Positions 7,200 through 60,874 of a stretch of DNA of 64,000 bases are shown piece after piece. Made by a program: the position numbers and the translations under genes. Numbering within the stretch: position 1 is the first letter of the stretch; every line of letters starts with the position of its first letter. Source of the stretch: Phoronis australis. Its lineage: Eukaryota > Animalia > Phoronida. The stretch covers positions 344,956-408,955 of the forward strand of contig NMRA01000208.1 of assembly GCA_002633005.1 (NCBI GenBank), in the 5' to 3' direction. Under the pieces are notes generated by a model. It did not search any database. It saw only the letters and a program-made list of their open reading frames with translations, and was not told the origin of the DNA.

Positions 7200-10100
7200 G
7201 TGAGTTATCATTGTTACCTGGAATCCTGAGGTCTCACAGACATTACATAATCAGTCCTCAGTCGAAAGGTGGGCACATACTAATTCATTTTGACCAAGTT
7301 ACTCTCATGGTCTAGTCATCAAGTGGCTGAGGATCTCATATTGAGCAAATAATTCCTCCACTGGGGCTAATTTTCTGCAAAAGCACTTCATTTCCACTAG
7401 ACTTGGTGCTTCGGAGATATATAAATGAGGCTGTGAATTGTTGATAAAAATCCCACAAAAGAACAGAAAACATAGAAAATCTCTAACTAAGCAAATCATA
7501 CTTCTTTGAAGCTAAATGTACCGCCGTCAAAACTTTTAAATTATCAAGTCACCTTGACAGTTTCATGATGTCATCAGTTGAAACGAGCTTTAACCCCCTG
7601 AAGACCCATCTTTGAACACCATTGGTTTGTTTTTTTTAGATGGTCCCTAGTAGCCTTTGTTTAGTGGCTTTATCACTGCGAACTGGCATTCTTAGTTACC
7701 ATGACAACACAATGGCTTCAAGTACTTTAACCTGAAAATAACTGCCTGTATTTTTTGAGTTTGAAGTGGTTCTGAGTAGGAGTTAAAACTGTTACATGAC
7801 ATCATTCTTACTTCCAATTGTTTTAGAACGTCTTTTATGCAACTTCAGTGAAGGATTAAGAAACAAATTATTGAATTGAGCTGTTCTGACAATTGTATGA
7901 CGCTTGAATCACAATCATGCTAACATCGAGTTAGCCTCCATTGTTGTTTGCTGAATGTGTGACAACAACTTGTCATGTGCTCAAACACTGTTTCCAGTTC
8001 ATGTCACTGACATTTATCGAGGTACGGTTTACACAATAAAAATTTAAGGTATATGTTATAGTGGTATTTTGAATGGATTATTCCATTTTGCCAATAAAAC
8101 TTGACAATAGGTATGTTAAGTAAGTTGTTAAAACTGTCAATCAGGGCTGGGTTGCATAAATCTTCAAATTTATCTGCGGTATGAGTTTGATTGTTGTATG
8201 ACATCAGGTGCATTGTTCAACAATAACAACGTGGCAGATGATAATGCGACCTCATTGTTGCTATGCAGCGTATAACTTTATGCAACTGGGCCCAGATGTT
8301 GTTATTAGTTATTTCAGTCTGTTGTCTTGACTTGTTTATTGAATGTGTAATAATATCATATGGCAGTTGAAGAATGCATTACAACCACTGTAGTCTAATC
8401 TGGCCTTGGATTGTCAATTTCTTTGCCCACATGTTAATACATTCCAAATGGTTTTCCCATCAGACTATTGGTGAAAGTATGTCTTATTTTGAATGACGGT
8501 TTCGCTGCTTACTACCACCCTCTGTAGTCAATGCTCAGTAGCCTGGTAGTACGGTAGACTCACTAGATCTATAACCATGGAGACACCATGACTTCAATTC
8601 CCCGTCCACATGGACTGTTGTTCTCAGTACTTTTTGTGGAATTCTCTATGAAGCCTCTCCTTTACTCATTTACACTGTTTGCATTAGATCTAGTGTGAAC
8701 AAAACTTTGTGACTGGCAAAGTGTGGATGGTTCTTTTATAACGCATGTATTTAAATAGCATGAACACGGTTTTGAATTATGTGATTTGCAAACGTAATAT
8801 GAATGCTGACGTATCTATACTAAACCTGTGTAATAATGTTGAGTTTCATTTCAGTAATGTCCAAGCAATGATGAACCTACTGAAGGGAAATATTGGCACT
8901 GGCATACTTGCTATGCCTGTTGCAGTGAAGAACGCTGGGCTCCTGGTGAGGGCGCTAGCTGTTATTACATCCACAAGTATACTCGGTCTATGATTGTAGT
9001 TTTGGTTTGCGATAGGGGTTCAACTCGGCGTTTCAGTCTTTTAATGAACCAAGGTAGCTTTTTTAATTAAAACATAATGATAAAGGATATGGACTGAATG
9101 AACTTCATATATTGTTTCAACAGTATGATCTGCCGCTGCCGCTAAGTGGATTTATTCCAGTTTGAACGGCTTGACTTAGTTAGTTTCATGTGGGTCTTTA
9201 AGAAAATGTGTTACCAAAAGTAAAAACTCTTCAATTTGGGACAGTGAAAATTTAATTATTTTGCCCAAGGTCAGAGCTTGTCCCAAATTCTAGAACCAGG
9301 TGGCATTGGCCATCCCAAATTTCAAGAATCACTCTATAGATCGAATGCCTGAATACAGAAAATTCAATTTTTTGGGAGTTTCCGTGTCCCAAATTCTAGA
9401 GACTAACCACCCAAATTAGAGAATTTTTACCTTACCTTATCAGCAAGTTTGTGCATTTAGCCAACTGTCTACAGAACTACAGAATAACAGTTTTTTAAAA
9501 CTTTATTTTCTGGCCAAAGTAGAACTCCAGTAGAATTTTCTTTGGGCTTTTTGGCAACCTGCCATTTACTGGGTCACATGACCATCTCTGTTTAATAAAA
9601 TTATGGCTGCTGTTTACCTGCTGATTTGGACCCCATACCTTGATGGGAGTGGCCCGAAGTTGGTCCTTAGTCACAATAGTTGTAATTTGTGGGCTTGCAA
9701 GGAACTGACATATCATTATGAGATTAAGCTCTACAATTATATGAGTTGTTATGGCATCTCATTTTATTCGCCAATTAAGGTCCCAACCGATATTGAATAG
9801 TGGTTGGAAATAATTGAAAGTTTTTGACATCCAGCTACTGCCGTGTGTAATTTTTGCCTTTTTGTGTCTGCTTCTGTCAGTCTGTGTAAGCACCGAGTTC
9901 ATGACGCTTGACTGATGTGTTAACTATAAAAAAGAATACGACAACACAAATAATGCATTTCCATTAGGTTCAAGCACGTTTTGAACTCTCTTGTGACAAT
10001 TTTAGTATTTTCATATTTCATTTTTGGCATCCGCTTTTCTGTCTGCCAAACGGTTTGAAACCCGACTCGTGTTGGCATTTGGACAGTTTTGACTTTTACT

Positions 10101-13100
10101 CTGCCCTGTAGTGACAACTTCATGTTTTTGTATTTGGTGAAGGATTTATATGAAACTTGATAGATAAGATTTTATCCTGAAGAGAAAAGCAATGCTTGTT
10201 TTTGGAAAGTTCCGACTTGTGATGTGCCCCATCATAATGGCAGTTATGTTTAAATTAATTATTCACTTTTACTATCAGCTTCTCCATCTGCCAAACATCA
10301 AGCCAAATGAGTTTCTATTAAGATTATCATTACTGGCATCAATTACCAAATGGGTGTGACTCGTGCGCTTACCCTAGTGGTTATTTTTGTTTCAGTTTTA
10401 CTTGCGACAATCTCAATATCCATCAGGATTACATTCCAGATGACTGCGTGCAGTAGTCTCAATAACGCTCACTCTTGAAAAAATCAACCCCCTTTTAAAT
10501 TTCTGCCATTTGTTGTGCAGATGGTGGGTACATAGCAACACTCTAAGTTGGTTTTGTTATATATGGCAATATGTAATTGTGTTTTGCTTGTTTATTTAGG
10601 TTGGTGGTGTTGGTGTGATAATTATTGGCACAATCGCTGTACATTGTATGCATATATTGGTGAAGTGTAGCCATGATCTCTGTCACAGGTAATGATTATA
10701 TAGAACTCAATAAAATCTGGTCTTGTCTCTAAAGTCAATCCTGTAAACTAAAGCTGATAATTATATTTTATTAGTTCGTTAAAGGTTTATTGAGGGCTGT
10801 TTAGGTGACATGACAGTGGCAAGTGTCGAGTGTTTTGATGTATTTTTCACAAATAAGTCACATTCTTTTTTTTCTGTAGCTATTCTGTGGTTGGAATAGA
10901 GCTCGAGGTATAGTTACTTTTGGACTAACGTAGCCTGCTTCATTCTTATTACATCTTAAAATATGGTGGGTTATTTTTTACCGACCACTGTTACAGGTAC
11001 TCAGTTAAAAGCCCCCAGGGCTCCGTTTCATTTTACTCTTAACTTGAGACCGAAATAACAATGCTGTCATTCCATCCGACGTCATGTTGCGCTTGTTGAA
11101 CAATGCTCTTGTCGTTAATCGAGCTTGAGACTTAAACTCATGAAACGGAGCCCTAGTCCACTGTTTTTACCACTTTTTACATTGTGCAACTTTAATCTGC
11201 TGCTTAATAACTATGACAAGTAACAGTTTTCGTTCTTGTAAGTGTCCATCTTTTGCTGCACAATTCAGTCCTTGTCTCATGCTTAGTATGAGCTTTAGTT
11301 GTCACTGTCATGTATTGAATTTCTACCAGATGTTTATAGTTCCTGTAGCACTTAAATGTATGACTCTTAATCACATGTTACTATGACGTATATCCTTAGC
11401 GTGTATAAATAGTTTTCTTGCATGTGTTTGAGTCACTTGGATGTCGTTTTCTTTAATGCTGAATACTTTGATAATATAACTCTTATATCATTCAATTGGT
11501 TTTTATACGTCGTACACCGACGACGTTACAGTCACTGCAGTATTTCCTTACTGCATTTGCATAAAAATTGTCATTTTCATGATTAAATTAAGTTTTGCAC
11601 AATACCCCAATTTTGAGGAAGAACAATGTATTGTAATGTTTTTGTTTTTAAATTCTTGTAGTTTAATAATTTCAGTTGTTATCATTTAGAAACAATATCG
11701 GCCAGTTATCATTAAAGCCTACTCTAAGTTTAAATTTTGTTTTCTTTCTTGTAGAACTGGTAATACAGCACTTAACTATGGTCAGGCTGTTGAAGAAGCC
11801 TTCTGTCTCGGTCCCACCCCACTGAGACGCTGCTCAAAGCTGGCCCATCAGTGTGTCAACTTGTTCCTCAATATAACACAGATGGGCTTCTGTTGTGTTT
11901 ATGTCTTATTTATTGCGGAGAACATCAAACAGGTTGGAATTTCATTTCAAGTACATTAAAAGCCAGAAGTATTCAGACAGAATGACATGGATGTCCCTGT
12001 CTTGGTAGCTGGGCTGAAACTGAGTTCATTGTCAGTTTAGTTTTCTCTCACAACAGAGAATGAGCCATTCTGCAAATAGAATTTTGCCATTCCGATAATT
12101 GTTACTAGTCATTTTTCTTTTAACAAAATTTGCCGTCATGATGGGGAAAGATCATTTTGTCTAATTACTGTCTTGCACTGCATGTGTCTCTTTTGTTGAA
12201 ACATTTTATGGCTCACATGTTCTTTTTGTAACTGTAACTGCAAATATTGAGGCATATGTGTCTATATGTGACACTGCATCTACATCCAGAGTAAGGCACG
12301 TACACTTGCATAAAATGCCCAACATGGAGATTTTTAAAATGACATGTGAATGAAGCTTGGCTTATCCTTATAGAATATTGGATGTTGACGCGTTAACGCT
12401 TTGACATTAATTAGTTAATATGTGAAAAATACTAAGAATGAATTAAGGCATAAAGGCACACAAAATATTCAGTTTAAAACAATGCTCATATATTTTGGTA
12501 GGTGCCCGAATCTATAAATCCAGAGCACAGATAGTTTTTGAAAAATGCAGTGTCAGTCTCACGGTCTTTAACACAAGTTTTAAGATTATGTAACATGTCA
12601 TGTTCTCAACTCTACAAATTAAAAGAGTTTGTTTCGTAAAAGTTTATGGTTTTATTCTATGTTGCACTCAAAAGGACATCCCTATTTTGAGGGATACGAT
12701 TTAAATACAAACTGTAATTCCATTAGTATTTTGACTATGTTTTAATACTGTAACAACAGAATTAGGAACTATTGTTTAATACTAGAAAAATACCATTAAA
12801 TATACAACTTGCATAAAAACTTCAGTTGCATTGTTCTCTCTATATATAGTCAACCGTGGTGCTGCATTAGGTATGAAATTGTTTGCACCATGTTGAGCCA
12901 CGTTTAAAAATCCCTGAGCCATGTTTAAAATCTTCAGCCATGTTTGAACAGCCAGAGTTACAAGACAAATGATTGGAATACAGTTGTGTATTGCTCCGTA
13001 TTTTAATATATTGCGATGAAAATGATTGCGACATGTCCAGCAACTGAAAATAACGTGCGACTAAATGTCAGTTGTTTTTCTGAATTAACAGAAAGAAAAT

Positions 13101-21116: not shown

Positions 21117-23000
21117 AACTTAATTTGGAACAGTTTACTACAGGGTGTCAACTTTTGATGACCTAGAGTAGATGCACCTGATCAGCTAGTTCCCTGTCAA
21201 TGAACAAAGGCTTTAGTGTGTTAGTGTCGAGCCTGTGGTTATGGTGCAACCTACGTTGGCGAGTGTAAAGACGTGTGTAATTAGCGTTGGCCACTGGGTG
21301 GAAAATATTGCTGGTAAATTATTCTCCTGAATTAGAGGCGTAAAGACACTTTTCACGCGGTGTTTTGAGCATTACGCCGAGCGTAAGTCACGACCGTAAA
21401 TTTCGACAGTACAGTTACAGGCATAATTAGTGAAAATTATGCAGGAACCTAAAAAAGTAATCAAATTTTTGCAACTTTCGTTACAAATCTCATAAATGTC
21501 TCATTTAATTCATATGAAACTTGAAGGTACAACGCTTTATGCCATGTTCTGAACAACGCTGTTGGCGGTTGTTTTAAAATATTCCATTTAGGCATATATG
21601 GATGTGGTTTGTTTAATGTGAATGGACATTTCTTTTTGCTAAATTTTAGCAAGAAGACATTGTCAGGAGACCCAAGTGGCTATAGTTTGGTATAAGGTCA
21701 CTGAAAATAAAATTGTGCGGAGTTTCGAGTGCATTCATTGATTTAAATTTTCAATAGTGTAGTTTTGTTGATATTTGGGCTTGTCGATAATGTCCTACAT
21801 AATTTTGATGAACATGCGTAGTGTTTTAAAAGTACAGTGTCACTATATAGGGTATAGTGAAAACGTGCATTTTAAAATGTGTCGATTATTGAGGGTGAAA
21901 TCGACACATTTCGTTTCGCGACCAAAACCCGCGGAAACTTCCTAATCATGCCCGGAGAAACAAAAGTACGCAAACCTCAAATCTGTCCCGGCTCCGCTCC
22001 GAGAAAATGTGTCGATTATTGGCCATTTGTGTCGGTTTCAGAAACGTTGTGTTGAAAAATTTCTAAGTCGGCCTACGAAATGTGTCGATTATTGGCCAAT
22101 TTTGTCGCTTTCCCAAAGGTGCTTTGAAAATGTAACAAAAAGCAAACATATCGGGGTCGAGCGGCTGGCCGGTATACAGTCCCTAGTCGTGTCCCGGGTA
22201 TCTGTGAAAACTCCCCAGACGCTGGTGCGGCGCGGTCAAGTCCCGCAGCTTAATTGCGGGGTCCGCGCTCCCAAGGTCGAAGCGCGGCTGCAAGTCTCTT
22301 AGTGTCCCTTGCGTATGTGTGCGAAATTTTCTGTTCCGAGAAATGTGTCGGTTATTGGCCATTTGTGTCGGTTTAAAGTTCAGAGACATTGGCGGTCGTG
22401 ATATCGACTAAGTGCCGGCATATATACTTATGCGGTCTCCCAGAATGGCATGTGAAGCGGTCCACATACTAAAAGGCCTGATCTGCTGCCCTGCGGCCAC
22501 GTATCCATTACCCACGGGTTGGCGGAGGACCAACTGGGAGAATGAGGTCGCGCCCGCTGTCCCGGCGCCGGAAAGTGACGATCCAGTCGGTGATCGTAGT
22601 TTAATCAGCAAGTTTTTGCGGGTTTTAGTTGAGAAACGAAGTGTGTCGATTTCACCGTTAATAACCGACACATTTTAAAATGCACGTTTTCACTTTACCC
22701 TATCGTGCCATATATCGTTTTATGAGCGTGATAGACGAGTGAAATTTTACGGAGGTTCAACTTTTTGAGACTTCACCTGACCTGAGTGCAACCTCATCTC
22801 TCATCGGACATAACGTAAAGCGAGCGTGAAAAGTGTTTTTACGCCTGTAATTATCGGGTGACATAGTTTGCCCCCAGCAGTCAACGATATTTAATTGATG
22901 TACGCGAGCTCGGCGAGTAAATTAGTTATCAGCAGGAAAGCATTCCTATTATTAGGCGTACATCCAAGTTATTAGCGCAGTATTGTGTTCCAATTAAGTT
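21117..23000. mobile_element. Older DNA transposon with long degenerate TIRs, hosting a nested element
   Basis: AACTTAATTTGGAACA...TGTTCCAATTAAGTT ends. Internal inverted match aggcgtaaagacacttttcacgc (21336) vs gcgtgaaaagtgtttttacgcct (22824). Confidence 0.6.
21848..22702. mobile_element. Nested non-autonomous DNA transposon with ~100-bp TIRs
   Basis: TAGGGTATAGTGAAAACGTGCATTTTAAAATGTGTCG... and its reverse complement ending at 22702. AAATGTGTCG(A/G)TTATTG motif repeated near 21875, 22005, 22078 and 22341. Confidence 0.85.
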
Positions 23001-23477
23001 CAAGTTACGTACGATTTCCGTGTCTGATTGACAGTTTGTTAACAATCAAGACTTGTTTTTCATTAAGCTTTTACGCAGGTAGGCAACATGTTTTCTGTGG
23101 TGCTTATTCTTAGCAAGACGTGTGTCAAGGACGTCCTGTTCACTACTCACACTTGGACGAATTCGTCACTACTCTTGAAAACGAGGTGTTATGACCAAAC
23201 TAGGGGTCTGCGTGCCACGCGCGCTAAGTTTATGTTTGCGTTTTTAAAATCGATGCCAAAACGAGGCACTGTGGTCTAAACAACAATGCACAGCACTGCT
23301 GCAGCGCCACCAGGCTTTGGCAAAGTCTGCAAGTAGTGAATACGAAATATGAGGACGTTTTATGTCATACTTTTTATGGTTGACTTTTTACTTTTTTCCA
23401 ACGCCTTTTGTGGTTGGTTTAATAATTTAGCGCATATTTTCGCCATTTCTTTCATTGGTTATTTGTGATACGCAGAA

Positions 23478-26331
23478 TTTTTGTCCGCCCACATATTTTT
23501 ATGTGGGCGCATATTGCTGTCATCTCTATCTGGGCGTCCGCGGCTGTATCTCCTAAACCCCTTGCAAGATAGTATTGAAATTTGGCAGGTGTGTTCCTAT
23601 GGGATTGACGACAGATGGCGACGAGTTTCGGACCGACCTGAATACCGCTGTGCCCCCTAGTGCCAATTTTAGTTTTTTACGTACGCCTCTGTATCTTCAA
23701 AGGTCCTCAACCGATTTTCATGAAATTTGGCACATAGGCATGTATTAATGAGATGACGCTATTCTGCCGTTTTCGGATGGATTCGAGGTATTTTGCGCCA
23801 TCTATTGGCCATTCTTACCGTTTTCGAGTCAGGTTTTTTGGCGTCCGCCCCTCTTTGTCAACCAAATCACTCTAAGGATGATTGTGAAAATTGGCACGTA
23901 TGTTCTTATTATGAAGAGGACGGTTGCCAATGATTTTCCTACGGCTTTATCTACTGTGGTGCCTCTTAGTGGCAGTTAAGTTTTTTTTTGCGCCCATGGC
24001 TGTATTTCCTAAACCGTAAGCAGGATCTTTTCTAAATTTAGAATGTGTATTTATGTGATGTTGACAACGAATGAGCACGACTTCTGAACCGATTTGAACA
24101 TCGGTGTGCCCCTTAGTAACACTTTTAGTTTTTTACGCTGACCTCAACGTATATTCATAAAATTTGGCATATCAGCATCTATTAGTGAGATGACGCTATC
24201 CTCCTATTTTCGGATGGATTTGACGTAGTTTGCGCCACCTAGTGGCCATTTTTACTCTTTTCGAGTCTGTTTTTTGGCGTCTACCCCTCAACTAAACCGC
24301 TCTAAGAATGATTGTGAAGATTGGCGTGTATGTTGTTACTATGAAGAGGACAGTTGACGATGATTTTCTGACGTCTTCAACTACTGTGGCGCTTCCTAGT
24401 GGTAGTTTTGTTTTTTGCGCCCATGGCTGTATCTCCTAAACCGTTTGCAGGATCTTTGCTAAATTTAGCAAGTGTATTTATATGATGTTGACAACGAATG
24501 ACCACAACTTTCAGTCGGATCTGACTACCAGTGTGCCCCCTAGTGGTAATTTTAGTTTTTTAGGTTTAGCTCTGTATCTTCAAAGGTCCTCAACGGATTT
24601 TCAGAAAATTTGGAATTTAAGCATTTATTGGTGAGATGATGCTATCCTCATGAGGTACTTTGCGCCACCTAGTGACCATTTTTGCTATTTTCAAGTCGTT
24701 TTTAGGCATCCACCCCTCGATCAATCAAACCATTATATGGATGCTTTTGAAAATTGGCATGTATGTTCTCATTGTGAAGAGAACGGATGACAATAACGAC
24801 TTTGACTACTGAGGTGCCTCCTAGTGGTATTTTTATGCGCGCACATATTTATATGTGGGTGCATATTGCCGTCATCTCTGTCTGGGCGCCCGGCGTACGC
24901 GGTTGTATCTCCTAAACCACTTGCAAGATATTGAAATTTGGCAGGTGTGTTCCCAACGGGTTGACGACAGAGGGCGACGAGTTTCGGACCGACCCGAATA
25001 CCGCTGTGCCCCCTGGTGGCAATTTTAGGTTTTTACGTTTGCCTCTGTATCTTCAAAGGTCCTCAACCGATTTTCATGAAATTTGGCACATAGGCATCTA
25101 TTAATGAGATGACGCTATCCTTTTGTTTTCGGATGGATTCGAGGTATTTTTCACCACCTAGTGGCCATTTTTACTGTTTGCGAGTCTGTTTTTTGCGTCC
25201 ATCCCTCCATCAACCAAACCGCTCAAAGGATGATTGCGAAAATTCTCATATATGTTTTTACTATGAAGTGGACGGCTGATGATGGTTTTCCGACGACTTC
25301 AACTACTCTGGCGCCTCCTAGTGGCAATTTTTTTTGCCCCTATGGCTGTATCTCCTAAGCCGTTTGCAGGATCTTTACTAAATTTAGTGAGTCCATTTAT
25401 ATGATGTTAATAACGCAGGATGACGACTTTCGGACATATCTGACTACTGGTGTGCCACCTAGTGGCAATTTTATTTTTTTACGTTTACCTCTCTATCTTC
25501 AAAGGTCCTCAATGTATTTTCATAAAATTTGGCATACAGGCATCTGTTAATGAGGTGACGCCATATCTCCATTTTCAGATGGATTCGACCTAGTTTGCGC
25601 CACCTAGTGGCCATTTTTACTGTTTTCTAGTCTGTTTTTTTGGCGTCCACTCGTCTATCAACCAAACCGCTTTCAGAATAATTGTGAAAATTGGCATGTA
25701 TGTTTTAACTATGAAGTGGACGGCTGACGATGATTTTCCGACTTCGATTACTGTGGCGTCTCCTGTTGGCAGTTTTTTTTTTTGCGCTCATGGCTGTATT
25801 TCCTAAACCGTTTACAGGATCTTTACTTGATTTAGCAAATGTATTTATATGATGTTGACAACGAACAACGACGACTTTCGGACGGATCTGACCATTTGTG
25901 TGCCCCCTAGTGGCAATTTTAATTTTTTACGTTTACCTCTGTATCTTCAAAGGTCCAAAACAGATTTTCATAAAATTTTGAATATTGGCATCTATTGAAA
26001 AGATGACGCTTTGCTCCTGTTTTTGGATGGAATCTAGGTAATTTGCGCCACCTAGTGGCCATTTTTCAAACCCTGGTCAACCAAATCCTTCTAGGGATGG
26101 TTTTGAAAATTGAAATGTTCTCAGTGTGAAGAGGACGTTTGATGATGGCGACTGGCTACTGTGGCGCCTCCTAGTGGTAGCTCTGTTTTGTTTTGCATCC
26201 ATAGCTGTATTTGGATGGATTGTACGTTTTTGCGCCATCTAGTGGCCATTTTTATGATACAAATAACCCTAAAAGCACACCATTTGCGATGCACTCGTGG
26301 GCGCATTTCAACGCTCCGCGTTGCTCTTGTT
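23478..26331 (+). mobile_element. Helentron-associated non-autonomous element (HINE/DINE-1-like) with internal satellite; two 5' heads (23478, ~24830) and one 3' end
   Basis: Starts in a T-run, with 5' subterminal hairpin CGCCCACAT-N6-ATGTGGGCG (23486-23509). 3' subTIR GTGGGCGCA (26297), short hairpin CAACGC-TCC-GCGTTG (26309-26323), terminal CTTGTT, no TSD. This matches the established HINE architecture. Confidence 0.85.
23540..26250 (+). repeat. Satellite of ~150-bp monomers in an ABC higher-order repeat (~430-450 bp, about 6 units)
   Basis: Three recurring monomer types (GTGCCCCCTAGTGG, GCGCCACCTAGTGGCC, GCGCCTCCTAGTGG) in fixed order. Confidence 0.9.
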
Positions 26332-26598
26332 AGGAACTTCAAGATCTACTTGCAAACTTTTTACTGTGTGCGAGTCTATTGAATGACACAGCGGCTATTA
26401 ACCCGCCTTCAGCCTTGAACCATGAAAGAGCGTAACTTTTTATTTAAACCATCCCACTGTACGATAGGTATAGCGTGTTCCTTTCTCAGGTGGGGAATGA
26501 TTTCTGGTGTAGGAATGAATTGAGAGCTTTGTAATGTTGAGACCACCCCCAGCGCATAAAGAGACAATCCGTGATAAACCAACTGATATTATCTCAAG

Positions 26599-26640
26599 CG
26601 GTTATCTGTTAGTTATCTGTTAGTTATCTGTTAGTTATCT
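26599..26640. repeat. 11-bp tandem repeat (gttatctgtta) x ~4
   Basis: Seen directly in the sequence. Confidence 0.85.
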
Positions 26641-27879
26641 CTAGTACGAAAACTGTATCTAACTCTGCAAGGAAAAAGACCAGATTTTTAACTGTCTAAG
26701 TGTCGTAAATCAAATGTTCATTTTCACGGATGGTGATTTTAAAGCCGCTTTAATATGTATTAAAAATTAAGATTAAAGTTTTAGATTTTTCCGCGTACAC
26801 GTTGAAAATCAATAAGACTGATCTCCAGGGTTCTTCTTTGCGTCACAAGCTAACATGGTCTAATCGGACGGCGTGAGAACATTTTGTATGAATGTGCGCG
26901 GCGGATTCCGACAATGATCAACTAAAGGTGAAGAACATTGACCACCAGGGGTGTACTCGAACTCGAATGAGACTGTATATTTATTATAACTGGGTTCCAT
27001 TTACTGTATATTTATTATTACTGGGTTCCATTTAAGTGATGGAAATACTAAATGAAGATCCCTTTTGGAACCAAAGAACTGTACCTTGATGTGGTAAGTG
27101 TACGCTTAACCCATCAATTAAAGACTATTTTAGACACAACAAATTTGTTACGAACCGATTGCACAAAATATAAAACGTGTAATAAGCATTACAAAAAGAA
27201 GGTTTCGCGCGCAAACGCTATGGACCATAAACAAGTAGGTCTCTTAAGACTTCGTATCAATTTAGTAGTTAAATCGTGGTGGTGTAGTGGTAAAGCACGC
27301 CCGCTGTGTACGCTTGGTGGTGAGTTTAAGTCTTGTGGTACTTACAGTTTTTCCTAGCTGACACCTCTTTTTGCCATTTTTTGCTTGGATAATACTTCGG
27401 GAATCAAGGCAAATGCTTGATTCTTAGAGGAAATAACAGAAAATTTTCCTGGGCGGAGGGGGATTTGCCCCCCTCCCGACCTCCCCCATTCGGTGCTATG
27501 CGCATCTATAATCGTGCTTTGAGCAAATGTTTACGGACAAAATGTTGGCCCCCCTTGTGATATCCTAGATCCGCCATTGCAGTAAGAGATCAGCTTCAGG
27601 AATTTACCGAGCGATTTGAAAATAAATTTGATTATTATGTAGGGTGTCCCAAAAAGTCACCTTGTATTTTAACCTGAGTTAAGGATATATAGGTCTTTTG
27701 GACAAGACTGTATATGCAATCTAGTACTTACAAGCCTCGGCCAAAGGATATACTTTATGAAATCTGATGATGTCAATGTTTAATGTTCAAGATAAAATTT
27801 CTGAAACGCTGCCACAGTTTTCTAAGTTATCATTCCGTTTTCGTTTTGTGCAATTATATTTTTTTCATAAAACTATTTT

Positions 27880-28892: not shown

Positions 28893-30554
28893 TTAGAGCG
28901 CACCGTTCAAGGAAGTAATGGATAAAAAGTATCCCAGAGACACGACTAAACTCGCGACACTTGCATTGTACAATAGTTTCGGGATGTTTCTTGTATTCCA
29001 CGATGGTTCTTGTCTAGTGCAGATGGATGTTTCCGAAAGTGAACCTTTCTTGTACTCTAGCAAACGTCCCCGATTATGTTCTCTCGCTTTGTAGAGCATC
29101 TCAGAATGTATCATTCTGGCCGGTTTAAAGTGATTTACTGGATATTCTTTGATCTCTGTTAGATTTAATGTGGCTTTCGACCTCTGTGTCGTTGCTGAAC
29201 AACTGTCTTTGTTTTTGATTCCTGAAATGGTGCTGGAGTTATTTGGTTGATCTTCGATAGTTTCACCAAGTGACGTTTTGAAGTCATAGATACCATCCTC
29301 ATCAAGTGATTTAGGGATGTCTTTCAAAATGTCTGTGCATCTCTCATTTGCGAGCGCATCGTCTACTCCTTCTTTAGCTTTCTGCGGTGTGTCACTCTGC
29401 TCCATTTCGTTGGCTACTTGCATGAGAAGGTTGTACACGTTAATGCCATCTTCGTCCACACATTTGTCCTTTTTATTTAATGGTTCATAAGAAGTTTCGT
29501 TCACCCTTACTTTCCCGTCACAACTATTGGAGAAACTCGTTTCAAAAGGATCCAAACATGCTTGTGGTGTAGCTTTCGGGTCAGTAAAAGATTTTTCCAA
29601 GACATCCATCTCTTTGTCAGTCTTTTCATTTTGTCCGTTGTGCTGTGTCTTGAAAGTGGCATCGACGTCTTCGGCTTGACTTTCTAAACACGTGTGCAAA
29701 GATTCACGTGACTGGGAACCTTCGAGTAAGCGGTCCTCTCCCGTCGACGCACCGACTTCTCGTTGACCTATTTCAAAAATGATCGACAGCTGCTCAATGG
29801 TGCGTCGTGCCTCGGATGAATTGCTTTCTGTATCGGCAAGGTAGCCCTCCCTTTTTATGCAGTTTTCCTCTAAATTTTTGGCTTGAAGATCACTTTTTTC
29901 AACAAGGTGACCGATTTCTTCGTATATTGTGTCCAGTTGAGGTTTTAAGATGTTCTGCTGGAGTTCAGCTAATGCTTCCTGGAATTTCCTGGTGTCAGCG
30001 GTTTTCACATCACCCGTCTCGTCAATGCATGCTCTAATAAGGGCTGTGTAACACGGTATTGGTTTTTTCTGGGAATTGCGTCGTGCGCTGGAGTACTGCA
30101 CTCGCGGAGCTCCAGTGGCTGTTTGACTTAAGGGAGGTGACATGGTTGTCGACGTTCTTTCTGTCCGTATACTTGGCGCATTGGTGAATATGCCTCCAAG
30201 CTGGTTAAAACCTGGTATTTTTGCAGGCGAAACATTGTTCCTTAGGTGACGCCTAGTGGACAGCCTGGTGCCGCTCGATTTTAACATTTCATTCCTCACT
30301 TTCCACTTAAGAGGTTTTAAGAAATTATCCGCGCCGTGGCATTCTTTTTGACAAATCCCTTTGATGGAATGGTTTCCAAAATTTCGTATAAGACTGTTAA
30401 CATCAATCATCAGAGCTTTGTTTGATTTTTCTTTTCTTTCTTTGCCGACGAAATCCTTTATTTTTACACTAATTTCACTACTTTCCGTCTGTTTGTCGGG
30501 GGGTGGAAATTCAATTTTGTCCAATGTTTCGCGTAGCAGTGTTCTTTCGGCCAT
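28893..30554 (-). CDS. Uncharacterised 553-aa protein: basic N-terminal half, predicted coiled coil, acidic disordered region, C-terminal hydrophobic helix
   Basis: 1.66-kb uninterrupted ORF in AT-rich DNA, ATG in context aaaATGG. An acceptor (cctttgcag) just upstream of 30597 opens the same frame, so an upstream exon is possible. No family recognised. Confidence 0.75.
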   Translation of the reverse strand: MAERTLLRETLDKIEFPPPDKQTESSEISVKIKDFVGKERKEKSNKALMIDVNSLIRNFGNHSIKGICQKECHGADNFLKPLKWKVRNEMLKSSGTRLSTRRHLRNNVSPAKIPGFNQLGGIFTNAPSIRTERTSTTMSPPLSQTATGAPRVQYSSARRNSQKKPIPCYTALIRACIDETGDVKTADTRKFQEALAELQQNILKPQLDTIYEEIGHLVEKSDLQAKNLEENCIKREGYLADTESNSSEARRTIEQLSIIFEIGQREVGASTGEDRLLEGSQSRESLHTCLESQAEDVDATFKTQHNGQNEKTDKEMDVLEKSFTDPKATPQACLDPFETSFSNSCDGKVRVNETSYEPLNKKDKCVDEDGINVYNLLMQVANEMEQSDTPQKAKEGVDDALANERCTDILKDIPKSLDEDGIYDFKTSLGETIEDQPNNSSTISGIKNKDSCSATTQRSKATLNLTEIKEYPVNHFKPARMIHSEMLYKAREHNRGRLLEYKKGSLSETSICTRQEPSWNTRNIPKLLYNASVASLVVSLGYFLSITSLNGAL

Positions 30555-33500
30555 TTTGTTACGGAGTGATGTATTGAGAAAGTGGCGTGATGTTTGCCTG
30601 CAAAGGACACGGGTTCAGAATATATCGCGCCTTTTTCGACTGGATTGAGACATGTATTTTAATGTGGGCCTACTTGTTCCTTTTGACGGAAGTACCGGTA
30701 TATATTTTCTTTTTGATTTCTCAATAATTACTTCTAAACACATTTTGTAAACATTCTTCAGTTGTAATAGCATTAGTGCACACCTGTGCTTTCGAATGTT
30801 AATTATTTTAAACTCTTCCCTGTTGATATGGTGTTTCAGGAGAGATGTGAGCTGAAGTCTGTTGCCGGAACTGAGAGGTGAAGTGTGTATCGTGCAATGT
30901 AAAAGCTTGGAGAAATCACTTCAATGTGATTACAAATTCGGCATTATATTTAAAGTCGTGATAAGATTTCTAAAAAAATCTTTCGAACTTTACAAAAAAT
31001 ATTTCCAAAATCGTGCACTTTGCTACTTAAGTTTATTCGGTTTTTTATCTACTTTCGGAGAATTTTAACAATTTCTTTATTCTGATCATACCGAAACAAC
31101 TTTGAAAAGGGTTAATCTTTTGCTAACTCAGTTACAAAAACTTATATACCTAGATAATTTTAGAAAAAAGTCGATAACATTTAGAATACAAGTTTATATT
31201 TTATGATTTTGTCTGTATGCATTTTTGACAGAATGATAACGATGCTGGGCGACAATATTCATGAAAATCAAAAAGGAATCCTTGCTGGTAGATATACTGG
31301 TGAAAATACAAGATGTACATACGGTGTTCTACATCACTAAAGAATACGATGTATTTCGAATGTTAATGATTGTCGGCTTTGATAGCGTTTTTTAGACATT
31401 TGTATATATTGTTTACCCTTCTTCAACTTCGGCAAAACACAGTTTAGAGTATTCATGCGCCTTGCTGTGCATATCATTACCGCGCATGTCAAAATCATAA
31501 ATAACCTTCATGCCTTCAAAAGATTTTTTTCACTTTCATTCGGTTTTCTGGATTCGTCAAAAAATCTCTGTCCAACTTAATCCCAACCCCTGGCTTCTTG
31601 TTTTTGTGTTATAGTTGTGTTCCGACATGTAAATATTTTTTTTCTGATTTTATGGAATTTTGCGCATGTGCATTAGTGATCAATGCTGTCTACACGGCCA
31701 CGCCACATATAGTATGTGGTGGTCAACTAGCCGAAATATGGCAATAGTTGCGTGGGCAACTTTTAACGTGGCCATAAACCTGCGTTCCGTCCAAAAAGCA
31801 ATTTAGGCCATTTACTACTACAACATCGGTCACAATTTGATCGTTACTCAGATGAGAAGCGATGTCTGGTTTCTAAAGAACTAACAGTTCTGTATTTCTT
31901 GATACTTTGCTCGGCGCATACTGGATGACACACCGTGATAGGCAAACTTGTAGAGCCGGCACAATGATAATCATGATATAGGGAACTGTCATAGCGGGCC
32001 TATAGCATCTTTAAAATAAACGAAAGAAATTTTAGCGTTCACGTTTGCGAAAATGAATGTTTTAAACTATTGATGTCTTGGGGTTATGAGGAAACTCATT
32101 CGAGGTTCTCAATAAGCACGAGAAAACTGAGAGAGAATGTGCAATTTAAATTTCTTGAGTGTCGGGTGCGAGCGTCCCTCCTCGCTTCCGACGCCTATGA
32201 AGCACGGGTTACTTTCGAAAAACAAATCAATGTTTAAAGTAACGTGTGCATGGTTTTCAATACAATACCTTTATCGTCGTTCAAGTAATTCTGCAGTGAC
32301 GTCATAAACGCTCGGGCCTTCTGGGAATGATCTAGCAGTTTTCAGCTAACCGTCTGTGGAGGCCCTTAATTATGCCACTTAAAAGTTCAACGCAGACATC
32401 CATTTTAGATCCCATGGCAAAATAAAATTCGCTCAATAAGTTACTCAGGCGTGAATTGAGTTTGCTGGTTTGTTTGTTATTTTGTGAAATAATATTTCTC
32501 CAATTATGTTGCTTTCCGCGAAGTATGTTTGTTTTTGTTTGTACGCAAGCTAAAGGTCACATTTTCTTGCGATCGACATGGAATTCACACGAAATGTGCA
32601 TCTCGTTAAAATCTCGACGCATTTTGTTTTGGGACTAAATTGGTCCAGAGATGTCGCTGTGGCGGCCATTTTTCGAAGTTCGTTTCGTTGCTATCCATTG
32701 ACGGACTCTTTTGAAATTTAGCATGCACACAGATCTCGCCAAGGATGATCTGGATTTTGTGATGCGTTTCTCTCTACGACCTTCCGTTCTGGAGTTATTC
32801 AAGACTTTCTGAGCACTGCCATGGTTATAATCATCAACCTCATTTCATACTATTTACTATAGCCTGGGCCTCCCTCCAACTCTGGATCTGCCCATGTGCC
32901 AAAACCTTGGTAAGTAGACTACCTTCCAATGCAATGAAGGGCCACAATATGTATCAGCGGTTATTGCACTTATTATCGCATCCGAGATATATTGTGGGCC
33001 TGGAGACAATATGTGCCGATGTCATGCATATATTGTCACACTCGGCATAAATTGTCGCCTAGGTGACCATGTGTGTCGAGTGCGCCAGTATACGTCATGT
33101 TGCAATTCAACACATAAGACAACTCACTTGCCCTCGAGGCATGCATCATGCTAGGACTTTTCGACAATTAAGTGACGGACACTGAAACTTTTGGCCTCAA
33201 CCTCAGATTATTCATGCTGTTACCGGCGATCCGTGTAGTTAACACAACTCCAAAACCTTACATGAATATTTTTTCCAGCTGCACTATGTAATATAAAGAC
33301 GACAACGGATGCATCCTTCACATTAAGTGTGTCGCAGTCTGCTCTCAAGGTAGCGCCTACGCCCAATCCTAAGCGTACTTGCAGAACTCTATTTAGCCGA
33401 GATAGAACTTGACAGCGTTGCCTGGCCTATTTTCAACCCAGAGATCATTAGTTACAGTGGTGTAGCTGACAAATTTTAGGCTGTCGTCCACATGGATCTC

Positions 33501-43799: not shown

Positions 43800-44701
43800 T
43801 CATGCTGGGTTCATGAATCCGAGAGTAGAGTCACTAGCCGTTTCTGTTGTTTTTCCTATACTAGCTGTGGAGCTTTCCATGTCCACTAGGCTTGTGAAGT
43901 TGAGCTGGTATGTTAACAACTGGCTGTAAGTAGCGTCAGCTATCCACGAGTATAACATTTCATCCGACGGATTGTAGTCCATCATTACGGTGTAATAAGG
44001 AAAGTCACTCAGTTGAATATTTCCAGGAGAGTAAACTTGCTCTTCTCCAGTCGAGGTACTGAAAGTATAGTGGATGTAGGGAGCCTCTGGTGCGGCAGAC
44101 GGGGAGATAAACTTCTGAGAGACCGTGTACAGGGTACCACAGATCATGAAGGCATTAAGCTCTGTATTTTTCTTCTGACTTGTGTGCCACGTGTTTTCCA
44201 ATGAAAATGAATATTCATTCATTTTTCCAATCACTATTGTCCCGTTTCTGCTGACTGACGGGTATATAACCCAAAGGCCGTGCTCATCGACCGCGAAGTC
44301 AATGGCTGTCCATCCGCCGATGCTGTAGGAATACGAATTGTCAACACCAGCGTCTGTCAGCCGCAGTTTAGACAATGTGCCGTCAGTTAAATTATATTTT
44401 ACAATGACCGGCTGCTTGAAAAGGGAGCAGAAGACACTATTTTGAAACACCACATGGCCAGTTCCCGCGCAGTTAATGGGCAAAATGAAGGTATCCCGTG
44501 GAAGCATATTCTCGCGCAGAGCGATTTCAGACTCGTACTTAAAGACTCGGTCTACGCGTGAGTGACCAGGCATTACCCAAAAGGAGTTGCCGTCAGACGA
44601 GTCCTTGAACCAGGCTCCAGTAGAATAAGAGTTCCCTTGAATTTTACGAAGTTCGGTCAAAACTTTGGATCCAATGACTGTCGCCAATCGTTTCGGACAA
44701 G
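43800..44701 (-). CDS. Olfactomedin-domain protein, exon 2 (OLF beta-propeller domain)
   Basis: Acceptor tttcacag|. Olfactomedin motifs GAWFKD, GTGHVVFQNS, IDFAVDEHGLWVIY, NAFMICGTLY, MMDYNPSDEMLYSW. Phase 1, matching exon 1. Confidence 0.93.
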
Positions 44702-46385
44702 CTGTGAAATAGAAATGTACATGTACGGGAGCTTAGAACTTTAGAATATTGACTCATTATAATTACTTCAGAGTAATTTCAATAAGTCGAGAGCTTGTCA
44801 TATTGATATTAGAATTCAATATAATGCGTTTACTAGAATAACACGGAATCAATATAATCAGGAGCGAACTTATAATAATTAGCTGTCAACTCATTCGTAA
44901 TTCGGTGTAGTAAGTTCTAAATTCATTATTATAGTTAGCTAAAGTCACGATATTAAGTTCGCAACTGATTATAATAATCAAAGTTATTATATTTACTTTG
45001 AAATTCATAACAATGACTGTAATGGTCTGGAATTCGCATCAGATATGGCGCTACAACGCATCAGTACTCATGCGTGGAACTAAAATCTCCCTCTCATATT
45101 TAGTTGTTGGTCATCATGTTTTTTTCGATGTTTGCATTTTTAATATCAAAATATCGTACTTGTGCGCTTTTGCACCTTTCAACTTTGAACCCTATTTAAT
45201 TCCAAATTGTTGCCTTTATTGTCCGAAGCAATAACTCTTTCAGAAAAAGATTCAAATCTACACATTTGACAAATAGTGAGAGTTTTACTGTGTTCGCATA
45301 TGTGCAGTGTATCAGAAAATGAACATCAATGTACATGCGGTGTTCGGTGCAAAAAATCAAAAACGTTGACAGAGAGTGGTGTTATTTCCTTAGAGGGATA
45401 CCAGGTACTTGACTGCGACATGTCAATCTGATGTAAGATATGAAAAAATGCTCAAAACTGAAACACACGTTGCAAAAATTGTAATACACGTTGCTAAAAC
45501 TGTAATACACATTACAAAAAGTGTAGCTTCTATTCCGACTCTCCACCAAGGGGGACCTTTTTATGATATCACTCAAGGCAATAAGAATGAACAACTTTTT
45601 TATGAAATGCACACTGCAAACTTGATAGGCTACTATTTTATTTTGTTAGAAAGAATGTAACGTAATTGCGATAAATAATAATTAAGCTTGCACTTGCAAG
45701 TTCAGTTTAATTCACTTGCAGTCTTGTAAGGTTTCAACCGCGATTAGGCCCACTGACGTTTTGTTAATGAAAGGAAACTTAAGTTTTAGAGATGTTTTTC
45801 GATTCTGGGCGATAGATTCACGCTAGTTACATTTAGAGCCCTGAAACGACTATGTTTTACATCAGATTCCTTCATATTTGTACACGATTTTAGCAAAAAG
45901 CATGTTGTCATTACGTAGAATTTAATTTAGCGAAGTATATTCATTGCCTTATCACCAGGGCAAACAAATGTTTTATCAAAAATGAGTTGTGTCTGGAGTG
46001 AATCAAAGCTTACCCCCCCCCTCCAGTTGTGATAGGCCACAAGTTTGTACTACTCATCTTGGATAGGATTAATGAGATATCCGTATCTACCGAAAACATT
46101 TGACGTGACACTTACTTGAAGATAAACGTTATCTAACCAAATTGCAGTTAGTTGACTCACCAATTGTACAAGAGCACTTAATATATACTTGGAGCATGAT
46201 GAAATGCTTAGAGTTAGTAAATAATTATACAGTGGTGTGCCCCCGATATGCGTGTTCAAAAATGTAGAAGAGCATTTTTGTGAAAGCAAAAATTTAAGGC
46301 GGCGGATCGGTAATCCAATTTAAAAAATTCTAGCGTCGGTTTGTTGATTCTGAAAGAAAATGAATGCAAGTGCTATGCAACTCAC

Positions 46386-49300: not shown

Positions 49301-49602
49301 ATACGCAGCTTATCTCCCGCCGGTACATTAAAACCGTAGGTAGCTTGGTCACTGTCTTTCGATCTCCTCTTCCTTGCGTGCTGTGCATTAATGTTTGGCC
49401 CTTGTAAAAAAGCAGCCAGAACATCCCTGGCAGATTTAATGCCGTTTTTCTCAGAATGCAGTGACTTACCCACGCTGCTTGCTTGGGCACCGTCGGCCCA
49501 CGGGCTGTCATGTATAATGTCTCGTTGGCTGTTATCACGTTCTTTAAGACCTGTTGCATGCACAGAGAACAGCAGTGCAAGTGCAAATAGTTCCAACAAC
49601 AT
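46386..49602 (-). CDS. Olfactomedin-domain protein, exon 1 (signal peptide, furin site, long coiled coil, Thr-rich mucin stalk)
   Basis: gccATG at 49602, signal peptide MLLELFALALLFSVHA, RKRR, heptad-rich stretch of about 600 aa, TTAPSLT repeats. Donor ACCG|GTGAGT joins exon 2 in frame (...KRT-A-CPKRLATV). Total 4119 nt, 1372 aa. Confidence 0.88.
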
Positions 49603-50289
49603 GGCTTGTGTGTATACGTGTAGGTCCACCAAGTTACCTCACAGCACCAGCCTTTACAACCGTCCGGCTACAGGTAACATTTTAAAAGAGTGCAACAGTC
49701 GACGACGTGGGATCATAAGTCCTATCAGATAACATCCTGCCAAAAGGTTAAATGTCAGTTAGATAACCTCATGACTACAGGTATTAGTTTCATATCAGGT
49801 GTGACGTGTTTTCACGAGTTCTCGCGAAAGATGATTCAAATTAAAAAAACTGAAAATGTGCCCTCCCCCTCCCCATTTGGAAAAGTGGGCAAAATAGTTC
49901 GCCTCAAAGAAACAAAAAGTCCGAGAAAAACGAGACAAAAGTCCAGTAAAAATGAATGAATGCGGCGTATATATAGCCCTGAACGAACCCCGTATTCCTT
50001 ATTTTTTCTTTAGTAAAAGGTCCACATCCTCAAAAATTCGAGCTCCCCTATATTTTAGGCTGGGAGCGCGCATGCCGTTTGTGTAGTATGCACGGGAAAT
50101 GCAAGTAAACGATTCAGTTTTGAAGAACAAAAATTCACTGCGCAATACTACTGGCAATTAAAAACATCAAGAAAGTGCAAAAACAACCTTTCCAATTTAA
50201 TGACCAATGAAATAGATTTTACTTGTTCAAGTACTTAAACTTCTTTTTCAATCTACGATTTGTAAACTTAAACCCAGTAATCTAGTTCC

Positions 50290-60526: not shown

Positions 60527-60874
60527 GTGATTTAGTTTGCAGTTATTTCGCGTTAGGTGACGTGTTGCTGGCGCAGTGTTAAAGCTGAGACTTTCGAAAT
60601 GATTCAAGCTGCCTGGATTGAATAATTGCACCTTTAACAAAAATTCTTGAGAAAAAATTTCAAAAGGCGTTACCACTAGCAATCAATATTACTCCGGATT
60701 TATCGACTCCGTGATACTGGTTTGTAATTTCCTAATTTATCCAAATCGTATCATCACACAATGTTGAGGTTCAAAAAAGAATAGTATACCTTTGTGGTTG
60801 TATTGTTGACTCGAGTCTGATGTCTATGTTTTAGGTGCGTTCCATTTTGTTGGCCAGAACATCGCATCTAAAAC

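What the first reader, a model, noticed from the sequence alone, without database searches (positions are those of the whole stretch)
23478..26331. Helentron-type mobile element carrying 19 co-oriented CTCF-like motifs at near-nucleosomal spacing: a candidate mobile insulator array
Seen: every satellite monomer ends in a G(C/T)GCC(A/C/T)CCTAGTGG(C/T) motif or a close variant. Motif starts are 23650, 23795, 23959, 24106, 24232, 24389, 24533, 24662, 24814, 25006, 25151, 25311, 25452, 25597, 25756, 25900, 26045, 26164 and 26232, mostly 125-165 bp apart. This motif is the best-conserved block among three otherwise divergent monomer types. Established: its reverse complement (e.g. TGGCCACTAGGTGGCGC) closely fits the CTCF core consensus (TGGCCACCAGGGGGCGC), CTCF is present across most bilaterians, and HINE elements are known to carry internal tandem repeats. 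Inference: a rolling-circle element could spread oriented CTCF clusters that act as chromatin boundaries, here between the SLC36 gene and a convergently transcribed orphan gene.
Basis: partly seen in the sequence, partly recalled or inferred. Interest (0 to 1): 0.85.

Follow-up and report, generated by a model that had tools for sequence, protein, structure and literature searches.

The report
Rolling-circle transposon carrying CTCF-motif arrays
Two head-to-tail copies of an abundant non-coding jumping element in an invertebrate genome carry a match to the binding motif of the chromatin protein CTCF in every ~145-base repeat; the motif is likely kept for the element's own benefit, while this copy is decaying, and binding or insulation is untested.

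Summary
All 19 motif starts are exact; 8 of 19 match the published CTCF consensus perfectly and 14 of 19 within one mismatch, against 0 and 2 matches in the other 60 kb.

The element is a HINE (non-autonomous Helentron), here a head-to-tail pair of a ~1.5-kb element whose first copy lacks its 3' end. Its array is an A-B-C higher-order repeat. The family is abundant (11,367 contigs laid in one DNA run) and transcribed almost wholly from one strand.

Between monomer types, only 51-58% alike, the motif is the best-kept block (12 of 14 versus 52 of 130 columns; P=0.0013, or about 0.065 post hoc). An otherwise unalignable HINE family elsewhere has the same motif, same strand, at a similar distance from the shared core box.

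The insulator reading is not supported. The 19 sites descend from one ancestral site, and 145 bp is ordinary HINE monomer length. The motif is not significantly better kept than the rest of the monomer at this locus (P=0.19). A preprint finds no Hi-C insulation at invertebrate CTCF sites. Host CTCF, binding and insulation were not testable. Verdict: new variant of transposon-borne CTCF motifs; interest 0.5.

The parts
23478..26331 (+). Head-to-tail pair of a non-autonomous Helentron (HINE); no ORF of 100 codons or more
   Evidence: depth jumps from 0-6 to 18,547 (X1) and 3,306 (X2) in the bin starting 23476
23478..24830 (+). Unit 1: 5' module plus monomers S-B-C-A-B-C-A-B-C'; lacks the last monomer and the 3' module
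   Evidence: collinear with unit 2, 1102 of 1302 aligned bases identical
24831..26331 (+). Unit 2: complete element, 5' module, S-B-C-A-B-C-A-B-C', short terminal B-type monomer, 3' module
23483..23492 (+). 5' subterminal inverted repeat (8 of 10 complementary to the 3' one here; 10 of 10 with the family-majority letters at 23483 and 23485)
   Evidence: (G>A 93%, C>G 89% of X1 depth)
23486..23512 (+). 5' hairpin formed by the subTIR and its internal inverted repeat (DINE-1/HINE feature), -11.5 kcal/mol
24831..24866 (+). Second 5' module (subTIR plus inverted repeat), -10.5 kcal/mol
26297..26306 (+). 3' subterminal inverted repeat GTGGGCGCAT
26309..26323 (+). 3' palindrome CAACGC-TCC-GCGTTG, 8 bases before the T-rich end
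23650..26245 (-). 19 co-oriented CTCF-consensus motifs, one per monomer (starts as listed in the finding; the CCACTAG... reading is on the - strand); no upstream CTCF module at any of 19
23711..23730 (+). Example of the conserved core box, 84 bp before the motif; exact matches occur in 115 metagenome loci forming 32 clusters
10020..10380 (+). Old, decayed relative of the same monomer between parts of the SLC36 region; motifs eroded
   Evidence: nhmmer E=2.8e-5 at 10139-10230, weaker flanking hits, none in the reversed-window control; sequence

Best explanation
This is a decaying head-to-tail pair of an abundant non-autonomous Helentron (HINE) whose ~145-160-bp central repeats each carry one CTCF-consensus motif, likely kept by constraint on the replicating master elements rather than by any boundary role at this locus. 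Shown: HINE ends, tandem pair, A-B-C higher-order repeat, high copy number, motif fit, motif conservation between monomer types, and no significant extra conservation among the copies here. Inferred: a Helentron Rep/helicase made elsewhere copies the element by rolling-circle replication from its subTIRs and 3' hairpin; read-through of the 3' signal made the pair. Inferred and untested: host CTCF binds the motifs on unmethylated copies and keeps them open or transcribed, which would favour those masters; inserted copies then drift, with CpG decay eroding the sites. The net effect would be many oriented CTCF-motif clusters scattered through the genome as a by-product.
For: Ends fit the HINE definition in PMC4067079 and PMC7492417. 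Units 1 and 2 are collinear and 85% identical; PMC7492417 notes tandem Helitrons with 3'-truncated inner copies. 11,367 contigs of run X1 lay on the 5' flank plus first three monomers, with a sharp boundary. Family-majority letters restore the consensus where this copy deviates (23663 C>G 97%, 23805 T>G 95%). Motif 12 of 14 vs 52 of 130 columns shared by types 51-58% alike. Type differences fall at consensus positions K and R. A HINE-like cluster from other metagenome records (L012, L019, L073, L085, L091, L110) has the motif on the same strand 72-80 bp after the same box, with spacers unalignable to ours (z mostly -1 to 1, one 2.5); 1 of 32 clusters, P=0.015 by zone shuffles at one mismatch or fewer. 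In the annelid Dimorphilus the CTCF motif is the commonest in open chromatin, mostly at promoters (PMC7854359). Family RNA is abundant and one-stranded.
Against: No binding datum and no host CTCF gene could be checked (no genome). A one-mismatch consensus match arises in about 7 of 10,000 random 150-bp monomers, so among the many repeat families of many genomes some will carry one by chance. The post-hoc conservation test is only about 0.065. Variable positions being low-information is not significant (P=0.14 within the element, 0.06 with the other family), and the R-position change is a CpG transition. 31 of 32 metagenome clusters sharing the box lack the motif, and at two mismatches the cluster test is null (P=0.39). 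The zebrafish matrix gives the T at consensus position 5, present in 17 of 19 sites, a frequency of 0.001. No upstream module at 0 of 19 sites.
Confidence: 0.5

Rival explanations
1. The motif is an inherited or transposition-related block of the HINE monomer (for example a site for another zinc-finger protein or for the element's own replication machinery), and the CTCF likeness is incidental.
For: HINE monomers are known to keep short conserved segments while the rest diverges (two shared segments in oyster group 1, PMC7492417). A second, non-CTCF box is conserved far more widely (115 loci). Look-elsewhere chance is not negligible. The post-hoc conservation P is about 0.065. The B-type motif folds a 5-bp hairpin around CTA.
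Against: The hairpin is weak or lost in types A, C and S (-1.4 to -2.5 vs -4.3 kcal/mol) while the CTCF fit is kept. A second family with unalignable spacer keeps the same 14-mer, in a variant (CCGCTAGGGGGC..) that matches the first 12 bases of the chicken HS4 FII site printed in PMC6746451. Most families lack the motif, so it is not needed for HINE transposition in general.
Confidence: 0.35
2. One reading: the array is a working mobile insulator, here a boundary between the SLC36 gene and the convergent ORF.
For: 14 of 19 sites are within one mismatch of consensus and all point one way. Transposon-borne CTCF sites are bound in lamprey and zebrafish (PMC5504073; PMC7182764). CTCF motifs are enriched at echinoderm domain boundaries without orientation (PMC13317027), and fly boundaries in the bithorax complex use CTCF (PMC1904468).
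Against: No significant excess conservation at this locus (P=0.19). Family-wide, the site-breaking G>A at 24234 exceeds the tolerated C>T at 24233 in all three runs (10.7 vs 5.5%, 6.3 vs 3.5%, 17.6 vs 12.7%). The old relative at 10020-10380 lost its motifs. Insulation and looping at CTCF sites sit at baseline in protostomes, echinoderms and lancelets (preprint). Sites every 145 bp leave no room for a nucleosome plus bound CTCF (inference from established sizes).
Confidence: 0.1
3. The repeat is a conventional satellite or local duplication, not a mobile element.
For: No empty site or autonomous partner was seen; no target-site change can be read.
Against: Paired subTIRs, 5' inverted repeat, 3' palindrome and T-rich ends; sharp family boundary at the 5' end; the same 3' module follows a B-type motif in 98 (X1) and 89 (X3) other contigs (loose ends at 24254).
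Confidence: 0.05

Closest known systems
Cg_HINE elements of the Pacific oyster and DINE-1/HINE of insects and mites (PMC7492417: abstract, introduction, first results and passages read; PMC4067079: passages)
   Same: subTIRs, 5' inverted repeat, 3' palindrome, T-rich ends, no coding capacity, central tandem repeats of 140-180 bp, conserved short segments among divergent monomers, tandem copies with 3'-truncated inner unit
   Different: Three-monomer higher-order repeat; no clear microsatellite in the left module; a CTCF-consensus motif in each monomer (my term searches of these two papers did not include CTCF; neither was returned by the CTCF + Helentron search)
Transposon-spread CTCF sites: lamprey hAT-Tip100 repeat 274 (PMC5504073, passages), zebrafish TDR13B and others (PMC7182764, passages and supplement parts 1-2), mammalian B2 SINE (mentioned in PMC12817080 passage)
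   Same: A repeat family carries a CTCF core motif in its consensus and multiplies it
   Different: Those are vertebrate and shown by ChIP-seq; no family named Helitron is in the zebrafish table of 40 enriched repeat types. Here the carrier is a rolling-circle element with about ten co-oriented motifs per copy in an invertebrate, and binding is not shown
ISX/ISXR helitrons of Drosophila miranda (PMC4384637, passages)
   Same: A non-autonomous helitron disperses a docking motif for a chromatin complex
   Different: One MSL motif per element, with demonstrated binding and host selection; here a tandem CTCF-type motif and no sign of host selection at this locus
Helitron minisatellite-derived PATC insulators of C. 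elegans (10.64898/2026.08.08.743475, abstract and outline only) and Helitron-marked supersized loops of Xenopus tropicalis sperm (Shi et al. 2023, title and one citing passage only; paper not held)
   Same: Helitron tandem repeats linked to chromatin barriers or loops
   Different: PATCs act by 10-bp DNA curvature, not a protein motif; whether the Xenopus Helitrons carry CTCF motifs I could not read

Membership tests
HINE (non-autonomous Helentron) | Subterminal inverted repeats (10-15 bp) near both ends | tested here: met
   23483-23492 vs 26297-26306: 8 of 10 in this copy, 10 of 10 with family-majority letters; slightly shorter than the 11-15 bp in the papers
HINE (non-autonomous Helentron) | Inverted repeat a few bases after the 5' subTIR (DINE-1 type) | tested here: met
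   hairpins at 23486-23509 and 24834-24865
HINE (non-autonomous Helentron) | Short palindrome 8-35 bp from the 3' end | tested here: met
   26309-26323, 6-bp stem, 8 bases from the end
HINE (non-autonomous Helentron) | T-rich (TT) insertion site, no target-site duplication | tested here: inconclusive
   T runs at both ends; no empty allele seen
HINE (non-autonomous Helentron) | Interspersed multi-copy family with defined boundaries, non-coding | tested here: met
   11,367 and 9,092 contigs laid, sharp 5' edge; 3' module in other contigs; no ORF of 100 codons or more
HINE (non-autonomous Helentron) | Microsatellite in the left module (common, not universal) | tested here: not met
   none found by TRF at 23478-23560; PMC4067079 says only some copies have one
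HINE (non-autonomous Helentron) | Autonomous Helentron partner with the same ends and a Rep/helicase | not testable with these tools
   no genome held
CTCF binding site | Core consensus match | tested here: met
   8 of 19 perfect, 14 of 19 within one mismatch; 16 of 19 at p<1e-4 with the zebrafish matrix; 4 of 19 hold the Drosophila core AGGTGGCGC
CTCF binding site | Upstream module 8 or 12 bp from the core (optional in vertebrates) | tested here: not met
   0 of 19 above 6 bits of 15.5 possible
CTCF binding site | Host encodes CTCF and binds the site in vivo | not testable with these tools
   no genome; none of the 8 listed runs is labelled ChIP or ATAC. CTCF orthologues are reported in molluscs, annelids and rotifers but not flatworms (PMC10658182)
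Chromatin insulator / boundary | Motifs kept by selection at the locus | tested here: not met
   7.6% vs 10.7% difference from type consensus, P=0.19; power is limited, so weak selection is not excluded
Chromatin insulator / boundary | Hi-C insulation or enhancer blocking | not testable with these tools
   no such data; literature prior is low for invertebrates

The most novel reading that the evidence does not exclude
Animal HINE monomers are built as a near-universal core box followed 70-90 bp later by a swappable docking slot for a host chromatin factor: CTCF in this family and in one other, a YY1-like AANATGGC in 6 of 32 clusters (shuffle mean 1.0, 0 of 200 shuffles reach 6), AGGTCA direct repeats in the largest cluster (27 of 35 loci). 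In L019, L085 and L091 the first monomer carries the CTCF-type motif and the next the YY1-like one. This family would then be a bulk supplier of bound, oriented CTCF clusters in an invertebrate genome, driving one-stranded RNA and occasionally being co-opted as boundaries, and its insertion polymorphisms would be a natural test of what CTCF does outside vertebrates. The YY1 and nuclear-receptor labels are recalled, not from a call.
Probability: 0.25. Interest if true: 0.8.

Novelty: new variant of a known kind. Interest (0 to 1): 0.5.

Why it matters
What CTCF does outside vertebrates is open, and data for spiralians are sparse (PMC10658182). A family of many dispersed copies, each with about ten co-oriented consensus motifs, gives a large matched set for testing binding, nucleosome exclusion and insulation by aggregating over copies or comparing full and empty alleles. 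It also means CTCF motif counts and orientation statistics made by scanning such genomes can be swamped by one repeat family. If the docking-slot reading holds, HINE central repeats would have a function for the element rather than being passive filler.

Tried and rejected
No whole genome is held, so no host CTCF search, copy count or empty-site search. blastn of the element against the window found no second copy at E 1e-3; a monomer HMM later found one decayed relative. Box pattern in viral contigs: 0. Box-plus-motif pattern in prokaryote genomes and viral contigs: 0 and 0. Rfam on 23000-27000: 0 matches at E 0.1. No RNA holder listed for this stretch; RNA runs came by species label only. 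Upstream CTCF module absent. Motif hairpin as the conserved feature rejected, as it is stable only in type B. The fixed 84-bp box-to-motif distance (14 of 18 monomers) equals eight helical turns, but the two C' monomers both have deletions there and the other family uses 72-73 bp, so I treat it as suggestive only. 'Near-nucleosomal spacing' rejected as evidence: it is ordinary HINE monomer length. Host placement stays loose: best named hits are bivalves and Capitella at 35-38% for the olfactomedin domain, and a nemertean (60%), a snail (58%) and beetles (50-56%) for SLC36 exons. The 573-codon ORF has no usable Pfam or Atlas match. Literature searches that found no report of a CTCF-motif-bearing HINE: (listings only; subscription papers are mostly missing, and Shi et al. 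2023 was not held). Earlier-finding look-ups by sequence and by the first word set were empty.

Full report
Observation. All 19 motif starts are exact and on one strand, with a median spacing of 145 bp. Against the human consensus CCASYAGRKGGCRS printed in PMC6746451 (passages), 8 of 19 sites are perfect, 14 of 19 are within one mismatch and 17 of 19 within two. The remaining 60,217 bp hold 0, 2 and 12 such matches. With the zebrafish ChIP-seq matrix from the supplement of PMC7182764, 16 of 19 pass p<1e-4, but so do 35 places outside the element, so that threshold is loose. Four sites contain the Drosophila core AGGTGGCGC (PMC1904468 passages). None of 19 has the upstream module. The count of 19 is not 19 pieces of evidence: the sites are copies of one ancestral site, and a random 150-bp monomer holds a one-mismatch match about 7 times in 10,000.

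Anatomy. The monomers fall into types A, B and C in a ~450-bp higher-order repeat, plus a 5'-specific type S. Copies within A, B and C are 79-83% alike on average; those types are 51-58% alike. A 5' module occurs twice, at 23478 and 24831, each folding into a subTIR/inverted-repeat hairpin. There is one 3' module, with a subTIR at 26297-26306, a palindrome at 26309-26323 and a T-rich end at 26331. The two units are collinear and 85% identical (1102 of 1302), so this is a head-to-tail pair of a ~1.5-kb element whose first copy lacks its 3' end. These features define DINE-1/HINE elements (PMC4067079 passages; PMC7492417 opening sections and passages). The latter also notes tandem Helitrons with 3'-truncated inner copies and monomers of mostly 140-180 bp. 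The element has no long ORF and no Rfam match.

Family. I laid 4 of the 8 listed runs on the left flank plus the first three monomers and 3 of 8 on 111 bases around motif 5. In DNA run X1, 11,367 contigs lay on the first stretch; summed depth is 37 over most of the flank and 18,547 in the first element bin. The tool warns that this is no copy number, so I conclude only that the family is abundant. Family-majority letters make the 5' subTIR a 10 of 10 match to the 3' one and restore the CTCF consensus at two places where this copy deviates (23663, 97%; 23805, 95%). The window's 3' module follows a B-type motif in 98 other contigs of X1. RNA runs X5 and X6 put 14,693 and 12,026 reads on the first stretch, about 30:1 from one strand; X7 gave about 150:1 on the second. 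Only 12 of 14,693 X5 reads are 99% alike, so other copies make this RNA, not this one. The strand could not be calibrated and no common start was seen.

Is the motif under constraint? Between type consensuses it is the best block: 12 of 14 columns identical versus 52 of 130 (P=0.0013 for a window fixed in advance by the CTCF match; about 0.065 for the best window found afterwards). The two differing positions are consensus K and R, but this placement is not significant (P=0.14) and R is a CpG transition. Among the 15 full-length A, B and C copies here (the 2 S and 2 truncated monomers were left out), the motif differs from its type consensus at 16 of 210 positions versus 212 of 1986 elsewhere (P=0.19). 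Family-wide, from the 40 of 62 variant rows shown, minor-allele load is 0.020 per site in the motif versus 0.066 and 0.032 in the 30 bases either side, but 21% of 14-base windows are as low. The site-breaking CpG change at 24234 is commoner than the tolerated one at 24233 in all three runs. An older relative at 10020-10380 has eroded motifs. The pattern fits constraint on master lineages over long times and near-neutral decay of inserted copies, though power at the locus is limited.

Relatives elsewhere. To avoid circularity I scanned metagenome contigs with the other conserved block, the core box. The scan returned 115 loci of an estimated 710; the 108 with enough downstream sequence form 32 clusters. 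One cluster has a CTCF-type motif 72-80 bp after the box on the same strand as here (6 of 8 loci within two mismatches, 3 within one). At one mismatch this is P=0.015 by shuffling; at two it is null (P=0.39). Its spacer does not align with ours, so the motif is either deeply conserved or gained twice. One locus lies beside a kinase-like exon, consistent with an animal host; hosts were not identified. The other 31 clusters lack the motif, so it is not a general need of these elements. In the same zone 6 of 32 clusters have AANATGGC (shuffle mean 1.0, maximum 4), three of them at 84-88 bp and one more at 78, and the largest cluster has AGGTCA direct repeats in 27 of 35 loci. I recall these as YY1-like and nuclear-receptor-like; no call gives those labels.

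Context and host. The array lies about 5.0 kb after the SLC36-type transporter's last ORF (stop at 18517; Aa_trans) and 2.6 kb beyond the stop of a 573-codon minus-strand ORF with no usable match, so between two 3' ends. Either way it is an invertebrate. A preprint (10.64898/2026.10.19.760054; first part and passages) finds loop and insulation scores at CTCF sites at baseline in protostomes, echinoderms and lancelets, and no autonomous nucleosome phasing by fly CTCF. Echinoderm boundaries show mild, unoriented motif enrichment (PMC13317027 passages). In an annelid the motif dominates open chromatin, mostly singly at promoters (PMC7854359 passages).

Mechanism. Most likely (0.5): a HINE family whose masters keep CTCF-type sites because binding keeps them open or transcribed and so available to a Helentron Rep/helicase in trans; copies such as this pair then decay. 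The anatomy, abundance and conservation pattern are shown. Transposition by a partner, CTCF binding and the benefit are inferred. Rivals: the block is kept for another reason or by descent and resembles CTCF incidentally (0.35); a working insulator here (0.1); not mobile (0.05).

Novelty. HINEs with central repeats, transposon-borne CTCF sites (lamprey, zebrafish) and helitrons that spread chromatin docking motifs (ISX) are each known. I found no report of a HINE with a CTCF motif in every monomer in the searches. The library lacks most subscription papers, and Shi et al. 2023 on Helitron-marked loops in Xenopus could not be read and may bear on this. The alignments of oyster HINE monomers are in figures that I could not see. 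Earlier AI notes list several CTCF-motif repeats in other genomes, so the broad theme recurs and is not rare. Rating: new variant of a known kind, interest 0.5.

Noticed in passing
window 23478-23975 and 24180-24290 (family-wide reads): The family is abundantly transcribed almost wholly from one strand (about 30:1 in X5 and X6, 150:1 in X7; 0.12% of X5 records lay on the first stretch), from copies other than this one. Random read-through would give both strands; an element promoter or a few strong host transcripts could explain it. RNA also shows a monomer variant not present in this copy (loose ends at 23626).
   Followed up: partly
L003, L014, L018, L031, L045, L048, L098 (78-88 bp after the box); L004 cluster; L019, L085, L091: Other elements with the same core box carry a YY1-like motif (often as an inverted pair) or AGGTCA direct repeats where this element has the CTCF motif; L019, L085 and L091 carry the CTCF-type motif first and the YY1-like one further on.
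   Followed up: partly
window 10020-10380: Decayed old relative of the same monomer, same strand, motifs eroded.
   Followed up: yes
window 23152-23295: Two short pieces of other repeat families just left of the element (depth peaks), followed by a lone CTCF-matrix hit at 23299-23318 (p=8e-6).
   Followed up: no
window 28893-30614 (-): 573-codon open frame with no usable Pfam or Atlas match; expression not tested.
   Followed up: partly
window 43800-49638 (-): An olfactomedin-domain exon downstream of a 1,102-codon frame with a signal-peptide-like start, a probable coiled-coil stretch and a Thr-rich repeat (read); probably one large secreted protein.
   Followed up: no
window 60872-61906 (+): Single-frame rhodopsin-family GPCR (PF00001).
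   Followed up: no
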